DNA of 64,000 nucleotides from Burkholderiales bacterium (GTDB lineage: Bacteria > Pseudomonadota > Gammaproteobacteria > Burkholderiales > SG8-39): positions 286,615-350,614 of the forward strand of contig JAVQZY010000020.1 of the NCBI GenBank assembly GCA_033582675.1, in the 5' to 3' direction. Both the position numbers and the translations under genes were made by a program. Within the stretch, counting starts at the first letter, position 1, and every line of letters starts with the position of its first letter. Below, in pieces: positions 5,307 through 55,440 of this stretch. The notes beneath the pieces were generated by a model, which was not told the origin of the DNA, did not search any database, and saw nothing but the letters and a program-made list of their open reading frames with translations.

Positions 5307-5331
5307 GCGTCCACCAGGCCGCGTTCGGCCA

Positions 5332-7059
5332 TCAGGTGCTCTCCTTCGCGTCCTCGCCCTCGCCCGGTAGCCCGATCGGCACGAGCGGCGCGTCGTAGGG
5401 CACACCGAGCAGCCGCAGCGCGCCTTCGGTGACCTGCGCGAACACCGGCGCCGCGACCTGACCGCCGTAGTACTGGCCGGCCGAGGGCTCGTCGAGCATG
5501 ACCGCGACGACGAGCCGCGGTTCCGACACCGGCGCGAATCCGACGAACGAGGCGATGTAGCGGTTCGTCGCGTAGCCGCCGTTTTCCTGCTTGCGCGAGG
5601 TGCCGGTCTTGCCCGCGACGCGCCAGCCCATGACGCGCGCGCGGGGGGCGGTGCCGCCCGGCTGCACCGCCGCCTCGAGCATCGCGCGCACCGTGCGCGC
5701 GACCTCGGGCGAGAGCACCTGGCGGCCGGCCGCGGGCATGCCGGTGCGCACGAGCGTGAGCGGCACGAGCTCGCCGTCGCGCGCGAACACGGTGTAGGCG
5801 CGCGCAAGCTGCGCGAGGCTCACCGCGATGCCGTGGCCGTAGGCCATCGTCGCCTGCTCGACCGGCCGCCAGTTCGCCGCCGGCCGCAGCTTTCCGGCCG
5901 CCTCACCGGGGAAACCGAGCTCGGGCGGTGCACCGAAGCCGAGGCGCGCGAAAAACGCGTGCATCTCCTCGCGCGGCAGGGCAAGCGCGATCTTCGCCGC
6001 GCCGACGTTCGAGGACTTGCGGATCACGTCGGCGACGCTCATCGCGGCGACCGGATGCACGTCGCGGATCGTGTACTTGCCGAGCGTGAGCGATCCGGGC
6101 GCGGTGACGATACGGGTCTCTGCGCCGACGCGGCCGAGCGCGAGCGCGAGGGCGACGGTGAAGGGTTTCAGCGTCGAGCCGGGCTCGAACATGTCGGTGA
6201 CGACGCGGTTGCGGATCTGCGCACCCGACAGGCGTGCACGGTTGTTCGGGTTGTAGGACGGCAGGTTCGCGAGCGCGAGCACTTCGCCGGTACGAACGTC
6301 CACCACCACGATCGCGCCGGCTTTTGCGCGGTGTGTCTCGACCGCGCTCTTGAGCGCCGCAAACGCGAGGCTCTGGATCTTCGCGTCGAGCGCGAGCGCG
6401 AGGTCGCGCCCGTCGCGCGCGGCGCGGATCGACGCGATGTCCTCGACGACGCGCCCGAGGCGGTCGCGGATCACGCGCCGGCTTCCGGGCACGCCCGCGA
6501 GCAGCGCCTCGTAGGCGAGCTCGATCCCCTCCTGTCCCTTGTCGTCCACGCCGGTGAAGCCGACGACGTGCGCGGCGGTCTCGCCCGCCGGGTAGTAGCG
6601 CCGGTACTCGCGGTGCTGATAGACGCCGGGGATGCCGAGCGCGGCGACCTGCTCGGCGAGTTCCGGCGGGATCTGCCGCTTGAGGTAGACGAAGTCGCGG
6701 CCGGCGTCGGCGAGCCGTCGCTCGAGCTCGGCCGGCGCGAGCGAAAGCAGCCCGGCGAGCGCCTTCAGCTGCGCCGCGCTCGCCTTCACGTCCTCCGGGA
6801 TCGCCCACACCGACTGCACCGGCGTGGACACCGCGAGCACCTCGCCGTTTCGGTCGAGGATGCGGCCGCGCGTCGCCGGCACCTCGAGCACGCGCGCATG
6901 CCGCGCCTCGCCTTTGCGGCGCAGGAAGTCGCTTTCGACCCATTGCAGCCAGACCGAGCGCGCCGCGAGCACCGCGAAACCGGCAAGGAGCAGCCCGAGC
7001 ACGGCAAAGGCGCGCCAGGACGCAAAGCGCGGCGGAAGGATCGCGCCGGCGGCGGTCAC
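5332..7059 (-). CDS. ftsI: FtsI / PBP3 peptidoglycan D,D-transpeptidase.
   Basis: GTG at 7057-7059 overlaps the ftsL stop (GTGA). It has an N-terminal TM segment (FAVLGLLLAGFAVLAA), the motifs STLKP, SSN and KTGT, and lies between ftsL and murE. Confidence 0.9.
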   Translation of the reverse strand: MTAAGAILPPRFASWRAFAVLGLLLAGFAVLAARSVWLQWVESDFLRRKGEARHARVLEVPATRGRILDRNGEVLAVSTPVQSVWAIPEDVKASAAQLKALAGLLSLAPAELERRLADAGRDFVYLKRQIPPELAEQVAALGIPGVYQHREYRRYYPAGETAAHVVGFTGVDDKGQEGIELAYEALLAGVPGSRRVIRDRLGRVVEDIASIRAARDGRDLALALDAKIQSLAFAALKSAVETHRAKAGAIVVVDVRTGEVLALANLPSYNPNNRARLSGAQIRNRVVTDMFEPGSTLKPFTVALALALGRVGAETRIVTAPGSLTLGKYTIRDVHPVAAMSVADVIRKSSNVGAAKIALALPREEMHAFFARLGFGAPPELGFPGEAAGKLRPAANWRPVEQATMAYGHGIAVSLAQLARAYTVFARDGELVPLTLVRTGMPAAGRQVLSPEVARTVRAMLEAAVQPGGTAPRARVMGWRVAGKTGTSRKQENGGYATNRYIASFVGFAPVSEPRLVVAVMLDEPSAGQYYGGQVAAPVFAQVTEGALRLLGVPYDAPLVPIGLPGEGEDAKEST

Positions 7060-7340
7060 GGCGCCTCCTGCGGGTCGGCGGCGCCCGCCACCTCGCGCAC
7101 GCGACGCGCATCCGGCGCCGCAAGCCCGAGCATCGCGCCTGCGAGGCGCGCAACGCGCGCATGCTGCCCCCACGTACTCGCCTCGAGTTGCAGCCGCCCG
7201 TACTCGACCTCGAGTTCGCGCGCGCGCTGCTGCTCGACCTCGAGTTCGGCGAACAGCTTGCGCGCCCGGTGCTGCGAGGTGACCAGCCCGAGCGCGCAGG
7301 CGACGAGCACCGCAAGCAGCACAAGATTCAGCTTTGCCAC
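7056..7340 (-). CDS. ftsL: Cell division protein FtsL.
   Basis: 94 aa with an N-terminal TM segment ([17 protein letters not shown]) followed by a coiled coil. It lies between rsmH and ftsI. Confidence 0.85.
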
Positions 7341-8311
7341 GCTCGGCGTCCGATGTCTTCGAGGCGCGCGCGATCGAGCGGTGCGTCGGTGCGCTCGGCC
7401 GCGCGCAGACGCGCGCTGCGCGCGCGCGGATTCGCGGCGACTTCGGCCGCCGACGGACGGCGCGCGCGACCGAGGAGTCTCACCGCCGGTTGTGGCATTT
7501 CGCGGGCGGTGAGCGGCAGATCCCGGGGCAGCGCAGTCGCCGCAGCCGCCGCGAGCACGCGCTTCACGATCCGGTCCTCGAGCGAGTGAAAGCTGATCAC
7601 CGCCAGCCGCCCGCCCGGGGCGAGCCGCGCGAGCGCCGCCGGCAGCATCATCGCGACCTCCTCAAGCTCCCGATTGACGAGAATCCGTAGAGCTTGAAAG
7701 GTGCGCGTCGCCGGATCCTTGCCGGCCTTCCGTGCGCCGACCGCGCGAGCCACGATCGCGGCAAGTTGCCCGGTACGCTCGATGGGCGCTCGCGCGCGAG
7801 CAGCCACAATCGCCTTTGCAATCTGTTCAGCAAACCGTTCTTCGCCATAGCGGGCGATCGCCTCCCGGATCTGTCGTTGCGACGCCTCGGCGAGCCACTG
7901 GGCCGCGGTCGGTCCTTCGTCCGGATCCATCCGCATGTCGAGCGGCCCGTCGGCGCGGAACGAGAATCCCCGCGCCGGGTCCTCCAGCTGCGGCGAGGAG
8001 ACGCCGAGGTCGGCGAGCACCCCGTGCACCCGCTCGACGCCCGACGCATCGAGAACGCGCTCGAGCGCGCTGAAGCGGGCCCGATGGATCGAGAAGCGCG
8101 CATCCTCGAGCGCGCGCGCCGCCGCGACCGCCGCCGGATCCCGATCGAGGGCGATCAGCCTGCCTGCCGGCCCGAGGCGCGCGAGGATCTCCCTGCTGTG
8201 GCCGCCGCGCCCGAAGGTGAGGTCGAGGTAGACGCCGGCCGGATCGATCGCGAGCGCCTCGATCGCCTCGGCGAGGAGCACCGGTCGGTGCGCGGGCGCG
8301 TCCTGCGGCAT
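7328..8311 (-). CDS. rsmH: 16S rRNA (cytosine1402-N4)-methyltransferase RsmH/MraW.
   Basis: [33 protein letters not shown] motifs. Second gene of the dcw cluster. Confidence 0.93.
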
Positions 8312-8326
8312 CGGCCGTTTCCGCGC

Positions 8327-8779
8327 TCACAGCGAGAAGTCCTCCATGCCCTGGGGGGGCGCGCCGTTGCCGGTGAGGTTGGCCGCGGCGAGCTTCGCGC
8401 TCCAGACGCCCGGATCCCAGAGTTCGAGGTAGTGGCCCTGGCCGACGAGCATCGCCTCGCGCGCAAGCTTCGCGTGAAGGCGCAGCCCCGGAGAAACGAG
8501 CACGCGTGCGGCGCTGTCGGGCACGACGTGCTCTTCGAAACCGAGCAGCAACCGCTTCCACCAGCTCGCTTGCGCGTGAAAGCTCGGAAATTTCTCGACC
8601 TGCGCGCGCACGCTCTCCCAAGCGTGCTCCGGGTAAATCAGCAGACAGCCTTCCGGGTGCGCGGTGAGAACGAGCGCGCGCCCGTTCTCGAAAAGCGCGT
8701 CGCGATGACGTGTCGGGATCGCAAAACGCCCCTTGGCATCGAGGGTGACCAGTGCCGCGCCGTGAAGCGAACTGCCCAT
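8327..8779 (-). CDS. mraZ: Transcriptional regulator MraZ.
   Basis: 150 aa with LDAKGRFAIP and a second SpoVT/AbrB-like half. First gene of the dcw cluster. Confidence 0.93.
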   Translation of the reverse strand: MGSSLHGAALVTLDAKGRFAIPTRHRDALFENGRALVLTAHPEGCLLIYPEHAWESVRAQVEKFPSFHAQASWWKRLLLGFEEHVVPDSAARVLVSPGLRLHAKLAREAMLVGQGHYLELWDPGVWSAKLAAANLTGNGAPPQGMEDFSL

Positions 8780-8836
8780 CCAACTTGCCCCCGGTAGAGT
8801 GGCTCCGGGGCAGATCGCATCTTCCTCCCCCGTAAT

Positions 8837-8861
8837 GCCACTTTTTTCTACGTTTTCCCAC
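8837..8861 (-). promoter_or_regulatory. Three direct pentamer repeats at 10-bp spacing; candidate MraZ operator.
   Basis: The minus strand reads GTGGGaaaacGTAGAaaaaaGTGGC, 58-82 nt upstream of the mraZ ATG. It resembles the spaced TGGG-type repeats bound by MraZ in E. coli. Confidence 0.5.
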
Positions 8862-8888
8862 TTTATTTGAGGCTGTTCACAAGGTCAA
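8860..8888 (-). promoter_or_regulatory. Sigma70-like dcw promoter (Pmra candidate).
   Basis: On the minus strand, TTGACC (8883-8888), a 17-nt spacer, then TAAAGT (8860-8865). It sits in the only AT-rich stretch upstream of mraZ. Confidence 0.5.
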
Positions 8889-9109
8889 GCGGGATTTTCT
8901 GGTTTTCCTAGGAGCGACAACGACTTAGCAAATCATGGGGAAGACGTTCCGAGATCGCAGAACAACGCTATTAATCAATGCCTTATCGTCCAGATTGAAT
9001 GTGCCGTGTGAAATGAACCGGCTTTTACGTCCTCGGCGAGCATCCGCTCGCGGCATCGACGGGCGCTTGCCGGCGGGTCTATTCACCGCACCCGCGGAGC
9101 CGCCTGCCG

Positions 9110-9960
9110 GGCGCATCGAGGAGATCGTCGAACCCCATCCGCAGCGCTCGCCGACGGGGCGACGATCTCCGTCTGAGGATTCCGCAACGTCGGTGTGCCG
9201 TCCCGGTCGATCAATGCCCTGATCGCGCAGTGCGCCAAAGACCTGACGGTGGTCGCGGACGACGCCGACAACGGCGACGTCGGCATCGCCGCGCGGCGCG
9301 TAAAAAGATCGTCTGTTCGTATCCCCGCCAGGCCAATTCGCAGCACTTCGACCAGGGGTATCGCGCTGGCGAAATCGAGCTCGAACTCGTGCCGCAGGGC
9401 ACGCTCGCGGAGCGCATCCGTATCGGGGGCACCGGGATCGGCGTGTTCTACACGCCGACCGCGTACGGCACGCGGCTTGCCGAGGGCGAGGAGACGCGCC
9501 GGTGATCGCGACTACTTCGAATCTCCAATCCGCTGCGACTACGCTTTTGTCGCCGCCGATCGTGCGACCGCTCCGGCAACTTCACCCACCGCAAGACCGG
9601 GCGCAACTTCGGACCGACTCATGGCGACGGCGTCGCGCGTCCCGGTCGCGAAGGCGCTCAAAGCGGTGCCGCTCGGGGCGATCGACCCGGAGCACGCGGT
9701 GACGCCGCGCATGTTCGTTACGCGCGTCCTGCGGGTCGAAAGAAGGATCGGCGCACGAAGCCGCTCGATCGCGAGCGGATCGCCGCGCGCCCCTTGCGCG
9801 CGCCAACTTGCGCACGCCGACCTTGCGCTGATCGACGTGCGAGCGGAGGGCCTGCACGTCGTCGAAATCGTCGGCGAAGCGCTTTCTTTCCCGCAGCTTC
9901 AGCGCTTGACCGCAGCGCCGATCAAGGCCAGCCGCGAACGCTTAAAGCGGGGCGCCCGCG
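9110..9960 (+). pseudogene. Decayed 3-oxoacid CoA-transferase (subunit A, plus a subunit B remnant with an internal deletion).
   Basis: Fragments sit in three frames: [75 protein letters not shown], then the B-like termini DRERIAAR and LIDVRAEGLHVVEIVGE. There is an in-frame stop and no start codon. Boundaries are approximate. Confidence 0.6.
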
Positions 9961-23151: not shown

Positions 23152-24711
23152 TCAGCCGAGCGTGAAGTAGAACGCGGCGCCCGCGCCGGGCGACGCCTCG
23201 GCCCAGACGCGGCCGCCGTGGCGCTCGACCACGCGCCGCACGATGGCGAGGCCGATGCCGGTGCCGGAGAACTCGCGCTCGGTGTGCAGCCGCTCGAAAG
23301 GCCGGAAAAGCTTTCCCGCATAGCGCATGTCGAAGCCGACGCCGTTGTCGCGCACGTACCAGGCGCCCTGTGCCGCGTCCCAGCCGAATTCGGCGCGCGG
23401 CTCGGCCACCCGACTCGAATACTTGAACGCGTTGTCGAGCAGGTTGAGGAGACAAAGCCGCACGAGCAGGGGATCGGCGCACGCGGGCGGCGTCTGCCCG
23501 ATCTCAAGGCGCGCCCGCGGATAGGCGGCGGCGAGCTCTGCCGCGATCGACGCGGCGAGCGCGCCCAGATCGAGCGGCTCGCGCCGCAGTCCGTGGCGGT
23601 TGACGCGCGCAAGCTCGAGCAAGTCGTCGACCAGCTGGCCCATGCGCCGGGCGTTGTCCTCGACCACCGCGAGCTTGCGTCGGCCTTCGCTCGAGAGCCG
23701 CTCGCCCTCGTCCTCGATCACCATGCGCGCGAACGCCCCCATCGCGCGCAACGGCGCGCGCAGGTCGTGCGACACCGAGTACGAGAACGACTCCAGCTCG
23801 GTGAGCGCCTCCTCGAGCTGCGCGGTGCGCTCGGCGACGCGGCGCTCGAGCTCGCGGTTGTGGTCGCGCAGCGCCGCCTCGGCGCGCTTGCGCTCGGTGA
23901 TGTCCACGCCGAACGTGAGCGTGCTGCCGTCCGAGAGCTTGCGATCGCTGACGAGCAGCCAGAGGCCGCCCTTCCGGCGCGTTTCGACCGGCGCCGAGCC
24001 GCGCCGGCGCCGCGCAAGCCGCTCGGCGAGCCAGGCCGCCTCCCGCCCTTCGGCTTCCGGGAACAGCCCGCGCTCGAGCCCTGCGCGCAGGTGCTCCTCG
24101 TAGCGGCGGCCGGGCTCGACGTACTCGGCCACCGCGGCGTTGATCTCGCGGAACCGGCGGTTCGCGACCACGATGCGGTCCTCGGCGTCGGCGATGCAGA
24201 TCGGCTCGTCCAAGTGCTCGACCGCCTCACGCAGCCGGCGGTCCGCCGCGGCTGCGAGCCGTTCGAGCTCGACCTGATGCGTCACGTCGCTGGCGACGCC
24301 GCGGTAGCCGCGAAAGACGCCGTCGCGGTCGAAATACGGAACGCCGCTCGTCTGCACCCAGCGCTCCTTGCCGTCCGGCCCGGTGACGCGGTAGCGGAAA
24401 TCGCGGAACGGTTCCCGCCGCGCGAGCGCCTCGAGGTGCGCGCGCCAGCGCGCGGAGCCGAGGTTCGCGTCATAGGCGATCTCGTCCCGGCGACGGCCGT
24501 AGAACGCCTGCGGTGCAAGCCCGGTCACCGCGGTGATCGAATCCGACATCCAAACGAACCGATGCTCGGCGTCGGTCTCCCAGAACCAGTCGGCCGAGGC
24601 GCGCGCGAAATCGTGCAGCCGTGCCTCGCTCTCGGACCGCTCGTTCTCCGCTGCACGCGGCGCAGGGCGAGCCGCGTACGCCGCCCTCGGATCGGTGCTC
24701 GCGTCCTGCAT
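23152..24711 (-). CDS. Cytoplasmic PAS/PAC sensor histidine kinase with no adjacent response regulator.
   Basis: Two PAS-like segments (DWFWETDAEHRFVWMSD; ICIADAEDRIVVANRRF), H-box SFSYSVSHDLRAPLR, and N/G boxes (LLDNAFKY, DNGVGFD, GTGIGLAIV). Confidence 0.88.
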   Translation of the reverse strand: MQDASTDPRAAYAARPAPRAAENERSESEARLHDFARASADWFWETDAEHRFVWMSDSITAVTGLAPQAFYGRRRDEIAYDANLGSARWRAHLEALARREPFRDFRYRVTGPDGKERWVQTSGVPYFDRDGVFRGYRGVASDVTHQVELERLAAAADRRLREAVEHLDEPICIADAEDRIVVANRRFREINAAVAEYVEPGRRYEEHLRAGLERGLFPEAEGREAAWLAERLARRRRGSAPVETRRKGGLWLLVSDRKLSDGSTLTFGVDITERKRAEAALRDHNRELERRVAERTAQLEEALTELESFSYSVSHDLRAPLRAMGAFARMVIEDEGERLSSEGRRKLAVVEDNARRMGQLVDDLLELARVNRHGLRREPLDLGALAASIAAELAAAYPRARLEIGQTPPACADPLLVRLCLLNLLDNAFKYSSRVAEPRAEFGWDAAQGAWYVRDNGVGFDMRYAGKLFRPFERLHTEREFSGTGIGLAIVRRVVERHGGRVWAEASPGAGAAFYFTLG

Positions 24712-46032: not shown

Positions 46033-47410
46033 ATGGGCCGCACGCTTTTCGAGAAGGTCTGGGACGAACACGTCGTCGCGCGCCTCGAAGGCGGCGCGGA
46101 ACTCGTTCACGTCGACCGGCATCTGCTCCACGACCTCGGCGGCGCGCAGGCGCTCGCCGAGCTTCGCGCGCGCGGGCTCGCGGTGAGAAACCCCGAGCTC
46201 ACGTTCGCGGTGCCCGATCACCTGGTCGGCACCGAACCCGGCCGGCGCGGCACGCGCGATTGGGCGGTAGCGCTCGTCGATGCGCTTCGCGACGAATGCG
46301 CGCGCGCCGGCATCCGGCACTTCGACCTCGATTCCGAAAACCAGGGGATCGTGCACGTCGTCGCGCCGGAACTCGGCCTTTCGCTTCCCGGCGCGCTCGT
46401 CGTCTGCGGCGACAGCCACACCTGCACGAACGGCGCGCTCGGCGCGATCGGCTTCGGCATCGGCGCGAGCGAACTCGTGCAGGTGCTCGCGACCCAGTGC
46501 CTCGTGCAGAAGCGGCCGAAGACGATGCGCGTGCGCTTCGAAGGCGAGCTCGCGCGCGGCGTGTTCGCGAAGGACATGATCCTCGCGTTGATCGGGCGCC
46601 TCGGAGCCGCGGCGGGAACGGGCTACGCGGTGGAATACGCAGGCCCCGCGGTGGCCGCGCTCGACATGGAAGCGCGCATGACGCTCTGCAACCTCTCGGT
46701 CGAGCTCGGCGCGAGAATCGGCATGGTCGCGCCGGACGAGACGACCTTTTCGTGGCTTGCCGGCCGGCCTTTTGCGCCGCAAGGCGCGGCGTTCGAGCGC
46801 GCGGTCGAACACTGGCGCACGCTCGCAAGCGACGCCGATGCGCGCTTTGACCGCGAGGTCGTGGTCGACTGCGCGGCGCTCTCGCCGCAGGTCACCTGGG
46901 GCACGAGCCCCGAGGACACGATCGGCGTGGACGAGACGATCCCGGTCCCGCGGCGACGACGCAAAACGCGCCGCGCTCGACTACATGGGCCTTCGCGCAG
47001 GCGAGCGCATCGCCGGAACGCGCATCGATCGCGTCTTCATCGGCTCGTGCACCAACGCGCGGCTTTCCGACCTTCGCATCGCCGCCGAGGTGGCAAGGCG
47101 CGGCCGCGTCGCAAAGCATGTCGTCGCCCGGGTCGTGCCCGGCTCGATGCGCGTCAAGCGCGCCGCCGAGCGCGAGGGACTCGACGAAATCCTCCGCGCC
47201 GCCGGGTTCGAATGGCGCGAGCCGGGCTGTTCGATGTGCGTCGGCGCAAACGGCGAGCTCGTTGAACCGGAAGCCCGCTGCGTTTCCACCTCGAACCGCA
47301 ACTTCGTCGGCCGCCAGGGTCCGCGCGCCCGCACGCACCTTGCGAGTCCGGCGACCGCCGCCGCCGCGGCGCTCGCCGGCGAAATCGCCGACGTGCGCGG
47401 TCTGCTTTGA
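46033..47410 (+). pseudogene. Aconitase-family hydro-lyase large subunit (LeuC-like), with a frame disruption near 46945.
   Basis: TLFEKVWDEHVV..VDRHLLHD..GDSHTCTNGALGA in ORF 46033..47265. The tail with [32 protein letters not shown] lies in ORF 46757..47410. Confidence 0.88.
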
Positions 47411-48118: not shown

Positions 48119-49531
48119 TCAGAACGCCTTCTGCCAGCTCGCGGTGCGACGCATCTCGCCCCAGCGAACGCGCACGCCGAACGCCCAGTGTGCGAGCCCT
48201 TCGAGACGCCAAAGTGTCAACAGCTGGCGATAGCCGAGGTTCTCCAACACCGCGAAGATCGCGAGAACGGCGAGCTCGCGCGGCCGTTTGTACACGTGGA
48301 ACGACATTTCCTCGAGGAGCAGCGCGCTTGCGGACAGCGCAACGCCGAGCCCGACGGCGAGGATCACGAAGCCGGCAAAGGCCTCGACCGAGATCAGTCC
48401 GAGCCGCGAAGCCTGCGACGAGCAGCCCGTAACCGCACACTTCGACCAGCGGGCCGAGCCACTCGAACAGCACCGCGAAAGGGATCGCGAGCCAGCCGGG
48501 CGCGCCGCCGCTCGGGTGCAGAGCGAGCGCGAGGTTCATCGTCAGGCTCTCGGCGAGGCCGCGCTGCCAGCGAGCGCGCTGGGCGCGCAACACCCTGAGC
48601 GACTCCGGCGCCTCGGTCCAGCAGATCGGTTCCGGTACGAATGCGATCCGGTACGTTCGGACCTGCGAGCCGGTGAAGGCGGTGCAGGCGCACGACGAGT
48701 TCCATGTCCTCGCCCACGGTGTCGATGCGGTAGCCGCCCGCCGCGACGACGGCTTCCCGGCGGAAGACGCCGAACGCGCCGGAGACGATGAGCACCGCGT
48801 TTAGCGGGCGACCAGCCGGCGCGCCCGAAGAGAAACGCGCGCAGGTACTCGACGACCTGGAAAAGCGGCAGCAGCCGACGCGGTAGCGCGACTTCCTCGA
48901 GGAACCCGCCGCGCACCACGCAGCCGTTCGCGACGCGCACGGTGCCGCCGGTCGCGATCATGCGGGGATCGTGCAGAAACGGCGCGACGACGCGGCGCAG
49001 ACTGCGACGCTCGAGGATCGAGTCGGCATCCACCGCGCACACCAGCGGGTACCGCGCGGCGTTGATACCGGCGTTCAAGGCGTCCGCCTTGCCCCCGTTT
49101 TCCTTGTCGATGACCCGCAGGTTGGCATGGCGCAAGGAGCGGTAGATGCCGCGCACCGGGCGTACCGGCAGCCGCCGTCGGTAGGCCTCGGGAAACGGTA
49201 TCAGCGCGAACTCGCGTCGCAGCGCCTCGAGCGTTCCGTCGCGCGAACCGTCGTTCACCACGACGATCTCGAACTCCGGGTATTCGAGCTGCAGCATCGA
49301 GCGCACCGAAGTGGCGATGGTGTTCTCCTCGTTGTACGCCGGCACGATCACGCTCACCGGCGGCTCCATTCCCGAAACGATCGGCAGGAGATCCTCCAGC
49401 ACCCGGTCCGTGAGGTAACGCCGCACGGCGAAAAACGCGGATACGTTGAGCAGCAAAAAGCCGGTGTTCAGGCCCACCAGGTAGGCGAAGAACACCCACT
49501 GGGCGACCACGATTGCCTGTTCCAGAATCAC
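48119..49531 (-). pseudogene. Polytopic processive family-2 glycosyltransferase (PgaC/NfrB-type synthase), with three frame disruptions.
   Basis: GTG 49529-49531 overlaps the upstream stop. N-terminal TMs; VSVIVPAYNEE, VNDGSRDGT, AVDADS in ORF 48542..49879; GEDMEL in ORF 48394..48795; QRARWQRG (48567-48581) in ORF 48015..48593; C-terminal TMs in ORF 48119..48367. Confidence 0.8.
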
Positions 49532-50603
49532 CGTGCGTCGCGCTCGGAGAGCACCTGAGCGAGCATGTCGGCCGCGAAGCGATCGCTGCTTTCTGACAAC
49601 ATCTTCTCGAGCGCTTGGCGCGTGATGCCTGGAAGACGGGCGAGCGTCTGCGCGGTCCGGTAGCGCACCCACCAGCTCGAGTCCGACAACAACGCAACCA
49701 GACGCTCGCGATCCTCGGGCCCGCCGATGCGGTCGAGCGCACGCACGGCGGCGACGCGCACGAACCATTCCGGGTGACCGAGCGCACGACGCGCGTGCTC
49801 GGCGTCCTCCGGGTGCCAGAGCGCAGCGAGCGCGGCTGCGACCACCTGCGCTGGCGCGGGTCGCTCGAGCAGCCGGCATACCGCCGGCCGCAGGAGCGCA
49901 GAGTTCGCGACTTTCGCAAGCTGCAGCAGCCGCACGATCTCGGATTCGGCCTGCGACGCACGCTTGAGCCGCGCTGCGAGCGCCTGCGCGAGCGCTTCAG
50001 CGACCGCGTCCCGGTCGCACTCGCGCAGCATCGCCGCGATTCTCGCGACCGGCCAGTCCTCGCGCTCTGCCGCCCGCTCGATCACTTGCGGAAGGTGGCG
50101 CCGACGCATCCAGCCTCAGGAGCATCTGCCCTGCGGCGAGCGACACGAGTGGGAAAGGCAGGTCGATCAGTGCGGCAGCAAGCGGTTCTGCGCTCCTCAG
50201 GCGCAGATAGCCGAGCGCGGCGAGGGCGATCAGCTCCTTGCGTTCGTCGCCCGAGGCGAGCAGCGTGACGGCGAGCCGGTCGGCACCCGTCCTCGCCGCG
50301 AGTTCGACCAGCCGCCCGCGCGTTGCGCCCTGGACGGATTCGAGCGCGCGCACCCAGAGCGAGAGAAAGAGCGCGCCGTCCTGCGGCGCGAGCGCCGGAA
50401 GTCGGTCCGGAATCGGCTTCGGTGCACGCGGCGAATATCGGCAGCCAGCGCGCGGAGAAACGCTGCTCGTGCTCCCGCTGCGCCGTAAGGCGCAACCTCA
50501 GGAAAAGCGCGCTGGCGATCAGCAGCGCCGAGAGCGCGAGCGCCGCGTAGCCGGTCCAGAAGGCGGCCGCGATCAGCGCATCAGAAGCGGTGGCGAAGCC
50601 CAA
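49528..50603 (-). pseudogene. Membrane-anchored HEAT-repeat protein, with two frame disruptions near 50415 and 50105.
   Basis: N-terminal TM AAAFWTGYAALALSALLIASALFL (ORF 50082..50603). Middle part in ORF 49997..50353. C-terminal HEAT/PBS-lyase-like repeats EWFVRVAAVRALDRIG and SWWVRYRTAQTLARL (ORF 49528..50109). Confidence 0.7.
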
Positions 50604-51336
50604 GGTGCAGGCCTCGGCGCCGATAGAGGTCGCCCTGCTCGTGGGTCGACAGCTCCCAGGAAAGCGCCCAATTCCGGCTCATCCAGTGACGTCCCCCGAT
50701 GCTCAGGCCGTATACGCGATTCGCGACCACCCCGACCGGCGGCCCGGCGTTTTCCACTTGCCGCCCGGCGACTGCCGCGACCGCGACGCTGCTGCCCTCA
50801 CCGTACGAATGCGCGAGCGCAAGACGCGCCGAGACGCCCGTGGATGCGCCCTCGGGGCGCCCGGCGAAAATCGTGAGCGCTGCCCGCCAGTCCGCCCAGT
50901 AGCGTTCGGCGCCGAGCACCAGAATGCGCACATCGGTCAAGGTGAACGAGCTGTGCCTCAGGCCGGCGCTCAGCACCCAGCCGCCTTCGATTTCCCGACC
51001 GAGCTGTCCGTAGATCGAATGCTCCGGCAACACGCGGTGGGAGCCGCTTGCGCTCGCCTCGAGCAACGCGTTCCATCCAGGCCCGATCGGCCACGCATAG
51101 CCGCCGAACAGCTCGGCATCATGCAGGCGAAAGCGTTCGGTGCGCCGTACCCCACCGTAGAGCGACTCGCGCGGACCGAGGCGGCGAACGGCCTCCAGCG
51201 CGGCGCTTCGCCAATCTCCTCGCCCGCCGGTCACCTGCTCTCGGGAGGCGCTCAATTCGACCTCGACCGCCGTCGGCTCGGCAAACGCCGCCGCAGGAAG
51301 AAGGAGCGCGACGATGAGCGCGGCGCGCACCGTCAT
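50581..51336 (-). CDS. YaiO-family outer-membrane beta-barrel protein.
   Basis: ATGA overlap with the receiver gene at 51333-51336. Signal peptide MTVRAALIVALLLPAAAFA. Alternating beta pattern; C-terminal ..LHLGLRHRF ends in an aromatic residue. Confidence 0.7.
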   Translation of the reverse strand: MTVRAALIVALLLPAAAFAEPTAVEVELSASREQVTGGRGDWRSAALEAVRRLGPRESLYGGVRRTERFRLHDAELFGGYAWPIGPGWNALLEASASGSHRVLPEHSIYGQLGREIEGGWVLSAGLRHSSFTLTDVRILVLGAERYWADWRAALTIFAGRPEGASTGVSARLALAHSYGEGSSVAVAAVAGRQVENAGPPVGVVANRVYGLSIGGRHWMSRNWALSWELSTHEQGDLYRRRGLHLGLRHRF

Positions 51337-51722
51337 CGTTTCAACAAGCGCCGCACGCGCGCCCGAAGCTCCTCGGGCTTGAAAGGCTTGACGACGTAGT
51401 CGCTCGCCCCAGCGTCGAATCCTCGCACGATATCCTCCTCCTCCCCGCGGCCGGTAATCATCACCACCGGAACCTGCTCCCAATCCGCTCGCGCGCGTAT
51501 CCGCGAGAGCAGCGCGAATCCGTCCAAGTGCGGCAGCATCACGTCAAGCGTGACGAGCGCGGGCGGCGGCGCAGTGTCGATCAGCTGTTCGGCACTGCGG
51601 CCGTCGACAGCGACCCGCACCGAAAGCCCCTCGCGCTCGAGAATATAGCGCACGAGGGCGATGATCTGCTCGTCGTCCTCGACGACGAGAGCGGTCTGCT
51701 GCAGCGAGAGTCGTTGCAACAT
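51333..51722 (-). CDS. Stand-alone CheY-like receiver domain protein.
   Basis: 129 aa with ALVVEDDE, TLDVMLPHLDG, VVMITGRG and YVVKPF. There is no output domain. Confidence 0.88.
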   Translation of the reverse strand: MLQRLSLQQTALVVEDDEQIIALVRYILEREGLSVRVAVDGRSAEQLIDTAPPPALVTLDVMLPHLDGFALLSRIRARADWEQVPVVMITGRGEEEDIVRGFDAGASDYVVKPFKPEELRARVRRLLKR

Positions 51723-51731
51723 GCGCGGATG

Positions 51732-52224
51732 CTATCGCACGCGATAGATCTCCACGTCGAAGTTGCCGCGCCAGGCCTCGACCTCGGCGCGCTTTCCCTT
51801 TTCGGGCGCGGTGAGCACCGCCTGCGCGCACGCCCTTCTGCCAGCGCATCTTGAAGATGCGGCGGTCTTCGACGCCGGAACGCGCGATCACCTCGGTCGT
51901 CTCGGCAAGCGGCGCGCCCCAGCTCGCGCGCAGGTGCGTGCGCACTGCGTCGAGATCCTGCGCGTCGAAGCGCACGCTGAACGCTTCGACCGAGCCGCCC
52001 TTGAGATAGAACGTGATGCGCGCTTTTGCGCCGCCGAACGAGATGCGCCCGTCGTCGCAGCGCCGATCGGCGGCGTCGGATTTCCACTCGAGCGGTTTGC
52101 AATACGCCGCGGGATAGACGCGCTTGATGTCGGATTCGCCCGCGCCGAGCGCGACGCCGCCGGCGTCGAACGCCGCCGCACCCGACGCCCAGAGAGCGAG
52201 CGAGAGCCCGAGGATCCGGTACAT
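51732..52224 (-). pseudogene. Small secreted protein of unknown function, with one frame disruption near 51835.
   Basis: Signal peptide MYRILGLSLALWASGAAA (ATG 52222-52224). The tail AQAVLTAPEKGKRAEVEAWRGNFDVEIYRVR* is readable only after a shift. The stop lies 9 nt before the receiver gene. Confidence 0.5.
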
Positions 52225-52292: not shown

Positions 52293-52601
52293 GTGCCGGG
52301 ACGCCGTCTTCATCTCGCGCTCTTGCCGCTTCTCGCCTGCGGCTGCGCCGCGCCGCGGGGGCAGCGGTCCGGCGCCTCGCCCGACGAGTCGCGCGAGGAC
52401 CTCGCCGCCTGCCGCGCAGCGGCGGCCGAGCGCATTGCGCGGACGGCGCCGGCCACCGCCCCACCGATGCAGATCGATCCGCGCTTCGGTGCGACCGAGC
52501 CGCAGCGGCCGGCTGAGCGCCGCATGGAAGAAGAGCGGCTGGTGGATGCCTGCATGCGCGAGAAGGGCTACCGCCTCGCGCCGGCCGCGCCGCAGAGATA
52601 G
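52293..52601 (+). CDS. Small lipoprotein of unknown function.
   Basis: 102 aa with the lipobox LLACGC after a basic n-region. It uses a GTG start and is divergent from the polysaccharide-type operon. Confidence 0.5.
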   Translation: MPGRRLHLALLPLLACGCAAPRGQRSGASPDESREDLAACRAAAAERIARTAPATAPPMQIDPRFGATEPQRPAERRMEEERLVDACMREKGYRLAPAAPQR

Positions 52602-52648: not shown

Positions 52649-55039
52649 TCAGGCCGTCCCGCCGCCTGCGCGCAGGACGTGCCGCACGCGCGCGGCGGCA
52701 TCCTCGAACGCATCTTCCGGCTTCGGCTCGTGGCTTGCCGGCCGCGCCCGGATGCGAAGGTCGCGCAGTTCCTCGCGCTCGCGCGCGGCAAGGCGAAACG
52801 CCTGGTCCTTGCCCGAGAGGTATTGCGGCGGCCAGTGCTGCGCCCCGTGTTGATACCACGCCGAGGCCTGAAGCGTGAAGTACGGGCTCGAGAGATGCGG
52901 CCGGGCGAGGGCGACGATGTCCGCCTTGCCGGAGGCAAGGAGCGTGTTCACCTGGTCGGCGGTGGTGATCGCGCCGACGGTCATCGTGGCGATTTTCACC
53001 TCGTTCCTCACCCAGTCGGAGAACGGCGCTTGGTACATGCGCCCATAGACCGGCTTTTGCCAAGGCACCGTCTGGCCGGTCGAGCAGTCGATGAGGTCGC
53101 AGCCCGCCTCCTTCAGCATCCGCACGAGCGCCATCAGGTCTTCGCCCGAAAGGCCGCCCGGTGCCCAGTCGGTCGCGGAAATGCGCACCGACATCGGTTT
53201 GTCCTGCGGCCAGACCGCACGACAGGCGCGGAAGACTTCGAGCGGAAAGCGCATGCGGTTCTCGATCGGGCCGCCGTATTCGTCGGTGCGGCGGTTCGTG
53301 AGCGGCGAGATGAAGCTCGCAAGGAGGTAGCCGTGCGCCATGTGGATTTCGAGCATGTCGAACCCCGCTTCCTCGGCAAGCCGCGTCGCGCGCACGAAAT
53401 CGGCCAGCACCTTGTCCATGTCGGCGCGCGTCATCTCGCGCGGCACCTGCGAGATGCCGTCGAGGTACGGGATCGGCGAAGGCGCGACGAGCGGCCAGTT
53501 GCCCGACGGAAGCGGATGATCCATCTGCTCCCAGCCGAGTTGCGTCGAGCCCTTGCGGCCCGCATGGCCGATCTGCAGGCAGAGCTTCGCCTTCGAGTGC
53601 GCGTGGCAAAAATCGACGATGCGCCGGAAAGCGTCGCGCTGCGCCTCGTTCCAGAGGCCGGTGCAGCCGGGCGAGATGCGCGCCTCCGGCGACACGCACG
53701 TCATCTCAAAGAACACGAGCCCCGCCCCCCCGATCGCGCGCGAGCCGTAGTGCACGAAGTGCCAGTCGGTGGGCACCCCGTCGACCGCCGAATACTGGTC
53801 CATCGGCGAAACGGCGACGCGGTTCTCGAGCACCATGCCGCGCAGCCTGAACGGCGTGAACATCGGCACCGGCGGATTTTCGAGGTCCACGGGGAAGCCC
53901 CGCGCGCGAACGCCCGCCGCGAACCAGCGCTGCACATCGCGGACGAACCCCGGGTCGCGCAGCTCCAGGTTCTCCCAAGTGATCTGCTTCGAGCGCGACA
54001 TCAGGCCAAAAGCGAACTGCTCCGGGTCCATGCCCCAGTAGCGCTTCATGTTCTCGAACCAGGCAAGCGACACGTTCGCCGCGTGCTGCGTCTTCTCGAC
54101 CTCCTCGCGGCGCGCGCTGTCGTAGCGCGCGAGCGCCCGCTCGACCGTGCGCTCGGCACGGAAACACTCGTAAAGGGCGATCGCGTCCTCCATCGCGAGC
54201 TTGGTGCCCGAGCCGATCGAGAAATGCGCCGTCGCCTTCGCATCGCCCACGAGCACCGCGTTTCCCATCACCCAGGTGCGGTTGACGATCGTCGGAAAAT
54301 TGCGCCAGATCGAGCGGTTGGCGATCAGGCGGTGGCCGGCGAGTTCCTCGGCGAACACGCGCTCGAGCGTCGCGAGCATCTCTGGCTCGTCCTTGCGGTC
54401 GAAGCCGAAGTTGCGCCAGGTGGATTCGTCCGTCTCGATCACCCAGGTCGAGCGGCCGGCCTCGTACTGATAGCAGTGCGCGAGGATGATCCCTTCGGGC
54501 GTCTCGCGGAAAAAGTACTTGAACGCATCGAGCGGGCGGGTCGAACCGAGCCAGACGAACTTGTTCGGCCGCAGGTCCACGCTCGGCTGAAAATGGTCCC
54601 GGTGCTGCTCGCGGATCTTGGAATGGATGCCGTCTGCGACCACGATCAGGTCGGAGTCGGGAAACTCGGCGAGCGACTCGACCTCGTGCTGAAAGACGAG
54701 CCGGGCGCCCAGTTCGCGTGCGCGCGCCTGCAGGATGTTGAGCAGCGCCACCCGCGAGCAGCCGCAGAAGCCGTTGCCTGCGACGCGGATCGTGCGGCCG
54801 CGGTAGACCACGTCCACGTCGTCCCAGTAGGCGAAGCGGTGCCGGATCATCTCGTAGGAAGGTCGGTCGTAGGCCTTGAAGGTGTCGAGCGTCTGGTCCG
54901 AGAACACCACGCCGAAGCCGAAAGTGTCGTCGGGACGGTTGCGCTCGTAGACGGTGACCTCCCAGCGCGGCCAGGCTTTTTTCGCGAGCACGGCGAAATA
55001 AAGGCCTCCGGGCCCGCCGCCGATGACGGTGACTTTCAT
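52649..55039 (-). CDS. 2-aminobenzoyl-CoA (or salicylyl-CoA) monooxygenase/reductase: an FAD monooxygenase fused to an OYE-like FMN reductase.
   Basis: 796 aa. [16 protein letters not shown]; [11 protein letters not shown]; [22 protein letters not shown]. The C-terminal half is OYE-like ([52 protein letters not shown]). Confidence 0.85.
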
Positions 55040-55440
55040 GCAACCTCCGGAATCACGGCTGTGGCTTCGATTTCGAGGCGCGCCTCGGGCTCGACCAGTC
55101 CCGACACCTCGACGACGGTCATCGCCGGGTAGTGCCGGCCCATCCGTTCGCGCCAAGCGGCGCCCAGCTCCTTCAGCGAAGCGAGATATTCGGCGCGGTC
55201 GAGCACGTACCAGTTCATGCGCACGATGTGCTCGGGCCGGCCGCCCGCCTGCGCGAGCACCTCGAGGACGTTGGCGAGCGCCTGGCGGAACTGTCCGGCG
55301 AAATCGCGCGCCTGCCAGCGCCGCTCGCCCGTCCATCCGACCTGCCCGGCGATGTAGACGGTCGTTCCTCCGCGCACCGCGATGCCGTTCGCGTAGCCCC
55401 GCGGCCTCGCCCAGCCGGGCGGCTGAAGCACGGTCATCAT
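55036..55440 (-). CDS. RidA/YjgF-family enamine/imine deaminase-like protein.
   Basis: 134 aa with YIAGQVG and VEIEATAV-type motifs. ATGA-type overlaps occur at both ends. Confidence 0.8.

What the first reader, a model, noticed from the sequence alone, without database searches (positions are those of the whole stretch)
48119..52224. Receiver / YaiO porin / HEAT-repeat / processive GT2 operon: a compact polysaccharide synthase-export module I cannot match to a characterised system
Five co-directional minus-strand genes are packed with coupling overlaps: a 9-nt gap at 51723-51731, ATGA at 51333-51336, a 23-nt overlap at 50581-50603, and GTGA at 49528-49531. In order they encode a small signal-peptide protein, a stand-alone CheY-like receiver, a YaiO-family beta-barrel ending GLRHRF, a membrane-anchored HEAT-repeat protein, and a polytopic family-2 glycosyltransferase. 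The glycosyltransferase carries the signature of processive synthases (VNDGSRDGT, AVDADS, QRARW at 48567-48581) between N- and C-terminal TM segments. An inner-membrane synthase paired with an outer-membrane barrel is the logic of PgaC/PgaA and NfrB/NfrA. From memory, E. coli yaiO shares a small locus with the GT2 gene yaiP; this should be verified. Those systems have neither a HEAT-repeat partner nor a receiver domain. This operon has no PilZ/MshEN/GGDEF-type c-di-GMP module, no deacetylase or lyase, and no Wzx/Wzy or ABC exporter. That suggests a minimal, phosphorylation-gated, synthase-dependent exopolysaccharide pathway. Caveat: the GT2 gene (3), the HEAT gene (2) and the first gene (1) carry frame disruptions as sequenced.
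Basis: partly seen in the sequence, partly recalled or inferred. Interest (0 to 1): 0.75.

Follow-up and report, generated by a model that had tools for sequence, protein, structure and literature searches.

The report
Uncharacterised receiver–porin–HEAT–synthase polysaccharide operon
This five-gene operon is a member of a widespread but unstudied family of sugar-polymer secretion systems in which a membrane synthase is always paired with a HEAT-repeat partner and usually with a phosphorylation-type signalling switch and an outer-membrane barrel.

Summary
On the minus strand of 48119-52224 lie five translationally coupled genes: a small secreted protein, a stand-alone receiver, a YaiO-family barrel, a HEAT-repeat protein and a polytopic GT2 synthase. 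All four junctions are exactly as described.

The six frame breaks are single-base insertions. They are absent from a relative that is 96% identical in DNA and has all five genes intact. leuC and leuD carry the same kind of break, so this is most likely a sequence-quality problem, not gene decay.

The cassette is strongly conserved:
- GT2 directly follows HEAT in 77 of 79 loci.
- A receiver lies upstream in 57 of 76 loci.
- Receiver plus YaiO in the window's order occurs in 42 of 76 loci.
- A HEAT–GT2 pair, often with a receiver, also occurs in Alphaproteobacteria, Deinococcus, Bacteroides, Planococcus and two haloarchaea.
- Close relatives add a CHASE-PAS histidine kinase, an Hpt protein, TPR repeats fused to YaiO, and a CE4-like protein.

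The GT2 is a distant PgaC relative (29% identity, far below the equivalog cutoff). Its model matches hyaluronan synthases over its full length. The HEAT domain is predicted to be cytoplasmic.

My reading is a synthase-dependent exopolysaccharide system controlled by phosphotransfer. Neither the polymer nor the gating is shown. I found no publication or curated family for it. A link to Xanthomonas xagABCD could not be tested directly.

The parts
51732..52224 (-). Small secreted protein (163 aa after correction). It has an N-terminal signal-like segment and no known family. It is a lineage-specific accessory, not part of the conserved core.
   Evidence: The reading frame is restored by removing one inserted base at about 51828. 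It has no Pfam or NCBIfam hit. Homologues were found only in L001 (82-89% identity in the tblastn pieces; 12 of 163 residues differ) and L002 (55-57% identity). dN/dS against L001 is 0.18.
51333..51722 (-). Stand-alone CheY-like receiver (129 aa) with no output domain. The phospho-acceptor Asp is in TLDVMLP (D60).
   Evidence: PF00072 scores 101.8 bits, and the best NCBIfam matches cover only the receiver halves of PhoB/OmpR-type regulators. In 61 cassette-linked receivers, E15 and D16 are 97% conserved, D17 89%, D60 97% and K112 100%. A receiver lies upstream of HEAT in 57 of 76 loci.
50581..51336 (-). YaiO-family outer-membrane beta-barrel (251 aa). It has a signal peptide ending AFA|E and a C-terminal GLRHRF with a terminal Phe. 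It is the presumed outer-membrane exit pore.
   Evidence: TIGR04390 scores 141.2 bits against a cutoff of 32, and PF19413 scores 63.8 bits. It sits in this position in 42 of 76 loci. In Mesorhizobium and Thermomonas the same barrel is fused to N-terminal TPR repeats. The gene is intact in the window.
49528..50603 (-). Single-pass membrane-anchored HEAT-repeat protein (357 aa after correction). The N-terminus is predicted outside and the alpha-solenoid in the cytoplasm. It is the obligate partner of the synthase.
   Evidence: There are two one-base insertions, at about 50415 and 50101. HEAT_2 scores 41 bits. The AlphaFold2 model of a homologue has pLDDT 92.3 and shows a long N-terminal helix followed by 17 helices. 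Foldseek finds only generic HEAT/ARM proteins. Flanking the TM segment, Lys+Arg averages 0.35 on the N side and 5.0 on the C side, and the C side is richer in 84 of 84 sequences. At least 1315 50%-identity clusters match at E<=1e-30.
48119..49531 (-). Polytopic family-2 glycosyltransferase (469 aa after correction) with the motifs of a processive synthase-translocase: NDGS, DAD, GED and QRARW.
   Evidence: There are three one-base insertions, at about 48805, 48659 and 48403. It is 99% identical to the intact protein P0001. Pfam GT2 families match. PgaC_IcaA scores 143.5 bits against a 422.3 cutoff. It is 29% identical to E. coli PgaC over 280 aa. The AlphaFold2 model (pLDDT 74) matches hyaluronan synthases best over its full length (TM 0.64-0.66), then BcsA and chitin synthases. 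GT2 directly follows HEAT in 77 of 79 loci.

Best explanation
The operon encodes a synthase-dependent exopolysaccharide secretion system of an undescribed family.

Shown or strongly supported:
- The GT2 is a membrane-embedded processive synthase of the hyaluronan-synthase / PgaC / chitin-synthase type.
- It is always encoded directly after a single-pass HEAT-repeat protein whose solenoid faces the cytoplasm.
- In diderm bacteria a YaiO-family beta-barrel, often with TPR repeats, is encoded alongside.
- A stand-alone receiver with an intact phospho-acceptor pocket is the commonest fourth partner.
- Histidine kinases and Hpt proteins are frequent neighbours.

Inferred mechanism:
1. A sensor kinase (CHASE-PAS type in close relatives; not located in this window) phosphorylates the receiver.
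2. The phospho-receiver docks on the cytoplasmic HEAT solenoid, which is bound to the synthase, and switches polymerisation and translocation on or off. This would be the role that c-di-GMP receptors (PilZ, PgaD, MshEN) play in known systems.
3. The nascent chain crosses the inner membrane through the synthase's own channel and leaves through the YaiO barrel.

The polymer is unknown. An N-acetylhexosamine-based chain is the best guess. This window holds a reduced version that lacks the kinase and the CE4-like protein present in some relatives, including the 74%-identical L002. Its frame breaks are most likely sequence errors.
For: - Anatomy and domains.
- Intact 96%-identical relative and purifying selection on all five genes.
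- Cassette conservation: Burkholderiales metagenome-assembled genomes, with a CHASE-PAS kinase directly after GT2 in 3 of 4. 471 GTDB species encode a HEAT relative, and 80 loci were mapped.
- Annotated records: Mesorhizobium ciceri pMESCI01 has HK, RR, RR, TPR-YaiO, HEAT, GT2, Hpt. Erythrobacter has RR, TPR, HEAT, GT2. Deinococcus has TPR, HEAT, GT2. Haloarchaea have RR, HEAT, GT2, in one case followed by a sugar nucleotidyltransferase and glmS. Planococcus and Bacteroides have HEAT, GT2.
- Thermomonas has HEAT, GT2, TPR-YaiO and a sulfatase-type transferase.
- Synthase fold.
- HEAT fold and topology.
- Receiver pocket conservation.
- Hints for GlcNAc: the best NCBIfam hit is PgaC_IcaA; a CE4-like neighbour occurs in 5 of the 61 loci with enough flanking sequence on both sides; glmS is adjacent in Halosolutus.
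Against: - No polymer, phenotype or protein-protein contact has been observed for any member.
- The receiver could act elsewhere.
- No cognate kinase or Hpt lies near the operon in this window. The only kinase-like hit is 24 kb away at 26% identity.
- 19 of 76 loci have neither a receiver nor YaiO upstream, so neither is obligatory.
- The barrel domain is about 230 residues, smaller than the 16-18-stranded porins of known systems. Its strand number and pore could not be modelled here.
- The GT2 model is only moderately confident (pLDDT 74).
- As sequenced, three of the five genes are out of frame.
Confidence: 0.6

Rival explanations
1. The system is the same synthase-export machine, but the receiver does not gate the enzyme. 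The HEAT protein is simply a structural co-subunit (like PgaD or BcsB). The receiver is a phosphate sink or connector in a two-component pathway that controls transcription or another target.
For: Stand-alone receivers commonly act as phosphorelay intermediates or sinks (general knowledge). Relatives carry hybrid kinases, Hpt proteins and extra receivers, which suggests a multi-step relay. One relative has an Hpt-REC-REC-GGDEF protein after the kinase, and a PilZ gene lies nearby in Erythrobacter, so c-di-GMP may be the real final signal. HEAT-GT2 occurs without a receiver in 19 of 76 loci and in Planococcus and Bacteroides.
Against: The receiver is translationally coupled inside the structural operon (ATGA overlap). 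It is ortholog-level conserved with it from Proteobacteria to haloarchaea. It has no DNA-binding domain. No transcription factor is a conserved neighbour.
Confidence: 0.2
2. The cassette is an orthologue of the Xanthomonas xagABCD cluster. That cluster is genetically known to direct an uncharacterised biofilm polysaccharide, so the system would be 'already known' at the genetic level.
For: xag is a small operon around a COG1215-type GT2, and its polymer is still unknown (PMC3528676, PMC8042644, PMC3609779, PMC9040811). Thermomonas, in the same order as Xanthomonas, carries HEAT, GT2, TPR-YaiO, sulfatase-like and a 314-aa protein as one operon. That arrangement superficially resembles a four-gene xag cluster.
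Against: Xag protein sequences could not be obtained. The X. oryzae qRT-PCR primers for xagA-D give no signal against profiles of the HEAT, GT2, YaiO and p563 families (xagB against GT2 scores 6.5; null 10.0 +/- 3.5). The 'xagB-like' protein of iron oxidisers has an N-terminal T2SSE_N (IPR007831) domain, which I read as MshEN-type, and a BcsB-like partner, and those genomes have no xagA (PMC4643136, PMC8250860). That points to a different GT2 lineage. No Xanthomonas protein appeared among the best 120 of the 288 relatives of the Thermomonas HEAT protein. No source names any member Xag.
Confidence: 0.12
3. The GT2 is not a secreted-polymer synthase. It makes a membrane glycolipid or short glycoconjugate (for example a processive diacylglycerol or ceramide-type glycosyltransferase), and the barrel has an unrelated role.
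For: There is a weak Glyco_transf_21 match (28.7 bits). GT2 enzymes with similar motifs include lipid glycosyltransferases (general knowledge). The barrel is small.
Against: The full-length structural match is to polymer synthase-translocases (hyaluronan synthase, BcsA, chitin synthase), including the C-terminal TM bundle. A QxxRW motif is present. The recurrent partners are typical of secreted polysaccharides: a TPR-fused outer-membrane barrel, a CE4-like protein and a sulfatase/LtaS-type transferase.
Confidence: 0.06
4. In this particular organism the operon is a decaying pseudogene cluster. The six frameshifts are real, and the loss of the kinase and the CE4-like gene marks inactivation.
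For: Three of five genes are out of frame as sequenced. Compared with L002, the lineage has lost the kinase, a second receiver and the CE4-like gene.
Against: All seven indels against L001 are +1 insertions. One of them is in leuD, and leuC is also broken in the window. L001 has the same reduced gene set with all genes intact. There are no premature stops from substitutions, and dN/dS is 0.15-0.36.
Confidence: 0.07

Closest known systems
PgaABCD / IcaADBC poly-beta-1,6-GlcNAc systems
   Same: The synthase has the same overall build: a GT2 with N- and C-terminal TM segments and D, DxD, ED and QxxRW motifs. It needs a small membrane partner and is paired with an outer-membrane barrel. PgaC_IcaA is the best-scoring curated family, with 29% identity to E. 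coli PgaC. A CE4-like protein is present in 5 of 61 mapped relatives, including L002.
   Different: The score is a third of the equivalog cutoff, and the family has its own 24-residue insertion. The partner is a 357-aa HEAT solenoid, not the two-TM PgaD. The porin is a YaiO barrel, not the PgaA family (TIGR03939 only 23.7 bits, on the TPR part). There is no PgaB in this window. Control appears to be by phosphotransfer, not c-di-GMP.
NfrB / NfrA / YbcH of E. coli
   Same: The logic is the same: an inner-membrane GT2 synthase, a TPR-type outer-membrane protein and an auxiliary protein in a short operon.
   Different: There is no sequence similarity between the GT2 proteins beyond 37 residues. 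There is no MshEN c-di-GMP domain. The outer-membrane family is different.
Class I hyaluronan synthases (Chlorella virus HAS, vertebrate HAS)
   Same: They are the best full-length structural match to the GT2 model (TM 0.64-0.66, 16-18% identity). Size and TM/GT arrangement are the same, and they are self-translocating synthases.
   Different: This is fold-level resemblance only. Hyaluronan synthases act alone, without a HEAT partner, porin or receiver. Substrate specificity cannot be read from the match.
E. coli yaiS-yaiP-yaiX-yaiO locus
   Same: A YaiO-family barrel is encoded with a GT2 and sugar-modifying enzymes on one strand. Both barrels belong to TIGR04390/PF19413.
   Different: YaiP matches only over the N-terminal GT-A half (28% identity). 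The two YaiO proteins show no BLASTP similarity. The E. coli locus has no HEAT protein and no receiver, and is itself uncharacterised and disrupted by IS2.
Bacterial cellulose synthase (BcsA-BcsB-BcsC, with BcsG)
   Same: It is a synthase-dependent system with a processive GT2, a TPR-plus-barrel porin and post-translational gating of the synthase. In the Thermomonas subtype, the sulfatase-type transferase recalls BcsG.
   Different: There is no PilZ domain and no BcsB. The TIGR03030 score is 59 bits against a 699 cutoff.
Xanthomonas xagABCD
   Same: It is a small GT2-centred operon for an unidentified biofilm polysaccharide (PMC3528676, PMC3609779).
   Different: Homology is untested. The only sequence data available (primers) gave no support.

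Membership tests
PgaC/IcaA PNAG synthase (TIGR03937 equivalog) | Whole-protein score at or above the curated equivalog cutoff | tested here: not met
   143.5 bits against a cutoff of 422.3 for the frame-corrected protein. 29% identity to E. coli PgaC over 280 aa.
PgaABCD system | Partners PgaD (small two-TM protein), PgaB (CE4 deacetylase/hydrolase) and PgaA (TPR plus porin, TIGR03939) | tested here: not met
   The operon holds HEAT, YaiO and a receiver instead. No CE4 homologue occurs anywhere in the window. PgaA scores 23.7 bits against a 366 cutoff for a related TPR-YaiO protein.
NfrB-type c-di-GMP-activated synthase | GT2 fused to a C-terminal MshEN domain, with an NfrA partner | tested here: not met
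   The protein is 469 aa with only GT2 Pfam domains. There is no significant similarity to NfrB.
BcsA cellulose synthase | Match to the CelA equivalog-domain model (TIGR03030), C-terminal PilZ domain and BcsB partner | tested here: not met
   TIGR03030 scores 59.4 bits against a 699.1 cutoff. There is no PilZ domain and no BcsB-like gene.
Processive membrane GT2 synthase-translocases (general class) | GT-A domain with D, DxD, ED and QxxRW motifs, flanked by TM helices that form a channel | tested here: met
   The motifs are present and invariant in 33 homologues. TM segments lie at both ends. The model matches hyaluronan synthase, BcsA and chitin synthase over its full length. Channel function itself was not tested.
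YaiO family outer-membrane beta-barrel (TIGR04390 / PF19413) | Profile match above cutoff, a signal peptide and a C-terminal aromatic residue | tested here: met
   141.2 bits against 32, and 63.8 bits against 23.9. Signal peptide MTVRAALIVALLLPAAAFA and terminal ...GLRHRF.
Synthase-dependent exopolysaccharide secretion systems (Gram-negative) | An outer-membrane porin that conducts the polymer, with a periplasmic TPR scaffold | not testable with these tools
   The barrel family is present. TPR repeats are absent from the window's 251-aa protein but are fused to the same barrel in Mesorhizobium and Thermomonas. Pore size and conduction could not be modelled.
Synthase-dependent exopolysaccharide secretion systems (Gram-negative) | Post-translational activation by a c-di-GMP receptor | tested here: not met
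   None of the five proteins has a PilZ, MshEN, GGDEF or EAL domain. A receiver domain occupies the regulatory slot.
CheY-like stand-alone response regulator | Receiver fold with an acid pocket, phospho-acceptor Asp and conserved Lys, and no output domain | tested here: met
   PF00072 covers residues 12-124 of 129. E15, D16, D17, D60 and K112 are conserved across 61 cassette receivers.
Xanthomonas Xag system | Orthology of XagA-D to the proteins of this operon | tested here: inconclusive
   No Xag sequences were reachable. The primer-peptide test was negative. Two metagenome scans with the primers found nothing.

The most novel reading that the evidence does not exclude
HEAT-GT2 is an ancient two-subunit polysaccharide synthase shared by Bacteria and Archaea. 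Its activity is switched directly by a phosphorylated CheY-like receiver docking on the HEAT solenoid. That would be the first synthase-dependent exopolysaccharide pathway gated by two-component phosphotransfer instead of c-di-GMP, with YaiO-family barrels as a new class of polysaccharide export porin. It would also give E. coli YaiO a function.
Probability: 0.3. Interest if true: 0.8.

Novelty: new variant of a known kind. Interest (0 to 1): 0.6.

Why it matters
Only a handful of synthase-dependent exopolysaccharide systems are characterised: cellulose, PNAG, alginate, Pel and Nfr. All of them are switched by c-di-GMP.

This cassette would add a family that:
- is present in hundreds of species, with relatives of the HEAT partner in 471 GTDB species representatives and more than 1300 clusters at 50% identity;
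- spans several bacterial phyla and haloarchaea;
- uses a different accessory subunit (a cytoplasmic HEAT solenoid);
- uses a different outer-membrane barrel family (YaiO, of unknown function even in E. coli);
- apparently uses a different control principle (phosphotransfer).

It occurs in cultivable and, in some cases, genetically tractable bacteria such as Mesorhizobium ciceri, Massilia, Noviherbaspirillum and Thermomonas. The hypothesis is therefore directly testable. The polymer could matter for biofilm or floc formation in soil, water and the rhizosphere.

Tried and rejected
1. Link to Xanthomonas xagABCD.
- The original paper is not held, and the reviews give no domain data.
- X. oryzae primers from a supplement did not match any fetched locus. 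They showed no signal against family profiles.
- Two exact-match scans of metagenome contigs found nothing.

2. Iron-oxidiser 'xag-like / sfz' stalk clusters. These have a BcsB-like protein and a GT2 with an N-terminal T2SSE_N (IPR007831) domain, so they are a different system.

3. Rubrivivax EmbRS clusters are Wzx/Wzy-type and unrelated. The Lipocone paper is unrelated.

4. Literature searches for YaiO, for HEAT plus glycosyltransferase plus receiver, and for 'synthase-dependent' found no description of the cassette.

5. Structure of the YaiO barrel. Strand number is therefore undetermined.

6. The afdb50 fold library was not available.

7. The promoter scan found nothing in this 69% G+C region. 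The terminator-like hits lie inside genes and number about what chance would give.

8. PDB sequence searches for the p563 and CE4-like accessory proteins found nothing.

9. Source names for cultured-organism members are all generic.

Full report
**What is in the window**

The minus strand of 48119-52224 carries five consecutive reading frames.
- a TAG stop, then 9 nt, then the receiver ATG;
- ATGA between the receiver and the YaiO gene;
- a 23-nt overlap between the YaiO stop and the TTG start of the HEAT gene;
- GTGA between the HEAT gene and GT2.

Profile searches confirm each assignment:
- Response_reg scores 101.8 bits.
- The YaiO family scores 141 bits on TIGR04390 against a cutoff of 32.
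- HEAT_2 scores 41 bits.
- Three GT2 Pfam families match.

The first protein has a signal-like N-terminus and no family. The GT2 carries NDGS, DAD, GED and QRARW, the last at 48567-48581. Hydrophobic segments lie at both ends.

**The frame breaks**

A 4.8-kb contig of a Burkholderiales metagenome-assembled genome (GCA_026416295.1, locus L001) aligns over its whole length at 96.3% identity. It has all five genes intact, at 163, 129, 251, 357 and 469 aa.

The only indels between the two sequences are seven single-base insertions in the window. Six make the reported frame breaks and the seventh is in leuD. leuC is also split in the window.

With the inserted bases removed, dN/dS against L001 is 0.15-0.36 for all five genes. 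I conclude that the breaks are most likely errors of this sequence, not decay of the operon.

Synonymous divergence varies 13-fold along the operon, from 0.019 in GT2 to 0.25 in the first gene. That suggests a recombination mosaic.

**Conservation**

The corrected GT2 has thousands of relatives, and the best 120 are 65-99% identical. Four long contigs carrying such relatives all show receiver, YaiO, HEAT, GT2. In three of them a CHASE-PAS histidine kinase starts at or just after the GT2 stop.

A profile of the HEAT protein finds at least 1315 clusters (50% identity) at E<=1e-30. Relatives occur in 471 GTDB species representatives.

In the 83 non-duplicate loci fetched:
- GT2 directly follows HEAT in 77 of the 79 loci with room for it.
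- A stand-alone receiver lies upstream in 57 of 76.
- Receiver plus YaiO in the window's order occurs in 42 of 76.

These loci were chosen by similarity to Burkholderiales HEAT proteins, so the proportions are not an unbiased census.

Three arrangements recur:
- receiver, YaiO, HEAT, GT2, with or without a kinase;
- receiver, HEAT, GT2 and a p563-family protein (Massilia);
- HEAT, GT2, TPR-YaiO, a sulfatase/LtaS-type transferase and a 314-aa protein (Thermomonas).

Annotated plasmid records extend the range:

| Organism | Arrangement |
|---|---|
| Mesorhizobium ciceri pMESCI01 | hybrid kinase, two receivers, a 580-aa TPR-YaiO protein, HEAT, GT2, Hpt |
| Erythrobacter | receiver, TPR, HEAT, GT2 |
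| Deinococcus | TPR, HEAT, GT2 |
| Planococcus | HEAT, GT2 |
| Bacteroides | HEAT, GT2 |
| Halosolutus (haloarchaeon) | receiver, HEAT, GT2, then a sugar nucleotidyltransferase and glmS |
| Salinirubellus (haloarchaeon) | receiver, HEAT, GT2 |

The invariant core is therefore HEAT plus GT2. The receiver is the commonest third partner. The YaiO barrel, with or without TPR, appeared in many of the proteobacterial and other diderm loci mapped and in neither haloarchaeon nor Planococcus.

The small first gene of the window was found in only one other distinct locus, L002, besides the near-identical L001. It is not part of the conserved system.

**What the parts look like**

The GT2 model (pLDDT 74) matches Chlorella-virus and Xenopus hyaluronan synthases over its full length (TM 0.64-0.66). 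BcsA and chitin synthases come next. This is the fold of enzymes that polymerise and translocate in one protein.

By sequence the GT2 is a distant PgaC relative (143.5 bits against a 422.3 cutoff; 29% identity). It is unrelated to NfrB. No close relative has a solved structure.

The HEAT model (pLDDT 92) shows one long N-terminal helix followed by an alpha-solenoid. It resembles only generic HEAT/ARM proteins. In all 84 family members the residues after the TM segment are rich in Lys and Arg (mean 5.0, against 0.35 before it). By the positive-inside rule, the solenoid lies in the cytoplasm, on the same side as the GT domain and the receiver.

The receivers linked to the cassette are 50-72% identical across proteobacterial genera. 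They keep the acid pocket, D60 and K112, and they have no output domain.

**Mechanism**

The anatomy fits a synthase-dependent secretion system, and I commit to that.
- Shown: the families, the topology prediction, the fold class and the gene linkage.
- Inferred: HEAT is a subunit of the synthase. The phospho-receiver acts on it, taking the place that PilZ, PgaD or MshEN c-di-GMP receptors have elsewhere. The chain leaves through YaiO.

The product is unknown. Weak pointers favour an N-acetylhexosamine polymer:
- PgaC_IcaA is the best curated match.
- A CE4-like protein is present in 5 of the 61 loci with enough flanking sequence, including L002.
- glmS is adjacent in one archaeon.

The window's version lacks the kinase, the second receiver and the CE4-like gene that L002 (74% GT2 identity) has at the same chromosomal site, between the oxidoreductase and leuCD. 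It is a reduced form, and its kinase must be encoded elsewhere.

**Comparison with what is known**

No Pfam, NCBIfam or source name identifies the HEAT protein, the GT2 or the accessory p563 and CE4-like proteins beyond generic labels. Nine literature searches found no description of the cassette.

However, it shares only the barrel family and a GT-A half-domain with this operon.

The one named system I could not exclude is Xanthomonas xagABCD, whose polymer is still unidentified (PMC3528676, PMC8042644). Primer-derived peptides gave no support. The published 'xagB-like' genes of iron oxidisers have a different architecture (PMC4643136, PMC8250860). I put orthology at roughly one in eight.

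**Verdict**

It needs three corrections: the first gene is not part of the core, 'minimal' is a lineage-specific state, and gating is inferred. This is a new variant of a known kind of system. It is widespread, unnamed and experimentally approachable.

Noticed in passing
window 46033-47410 (+) and about 47818: leuC is split into two frames near 46.9 kb. leuD carries a one-base insertion relative to L001. Frame breaks are therefore window-wide rather than specific to the polysaccharide operon.
   Followed up: partly
window 48119-52224 against L001: Synonymous divergence differs 13-fold along the operon: GT2 0.019, HEAT 0.045, YaiO 0.16, receiver 0.14, first gene 0.25. The step lies near 50.45-50.6 kb. 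This suggests recombination between lineages inside the operon.
   Followed up: partly
window 52293-52601 (+): A 102-aa ORF has a lipoprotein-type signal (LLAC|G). It is 42% identical to a 106-aa gene at the same position in L002. It lies between the operon and the FAD-binding/Old-Yellow-Enzyme fusion gene at 52649-55336 (-).
   Followed up: partly
L005 1972-5543; L003 4149-5471; L048 14216-15160; L013, L015, L029 and others: Two accessory protein families without any Pfam or NCBIfam model recur beside HEAT-GT2. One is a 440-680-aa 'p563' family, whose C-terminal ~300 residues also occur alone as a 314-aa protein; it is present in 29 of 61 loci. The other is a ~626-aa protein with a weak CE4 deacetylase match. 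Neither is present in the window.
   Followed up: partly
L088 (Halosolutus plasmid) 3519-9568; L093 (Salinirubellus) 3024-5889: Haloarchaea carry receiver, HEAT, GT2 with a GT2 that is 45-47% identical to the window's. In one case the genes are followed by a sugar nucleotidyltransferase and glmS. This is a cross-domain distribution, and it hints at UDP-GlcNAc as the substrate.
   Followed up: partly
window about 23158-24627 (-): A PAS-HisKA-HATPase kinase gene is the only kinase-like match in the window to the cassette-linked kinases (26% identity). It is too distant and too generic to call cognate.
   Followed up: no
L003 12216-13844; L090 12510-13037: Some relatives have c-di-GMP components next to the cassette: an Hpt-REC-REC-GGDEF protein after the kinase, and a PilZ protein in Erythrobacter. 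Phosphorelay and c-di-GMP signalling may be linked in this family.
   Followed up: no
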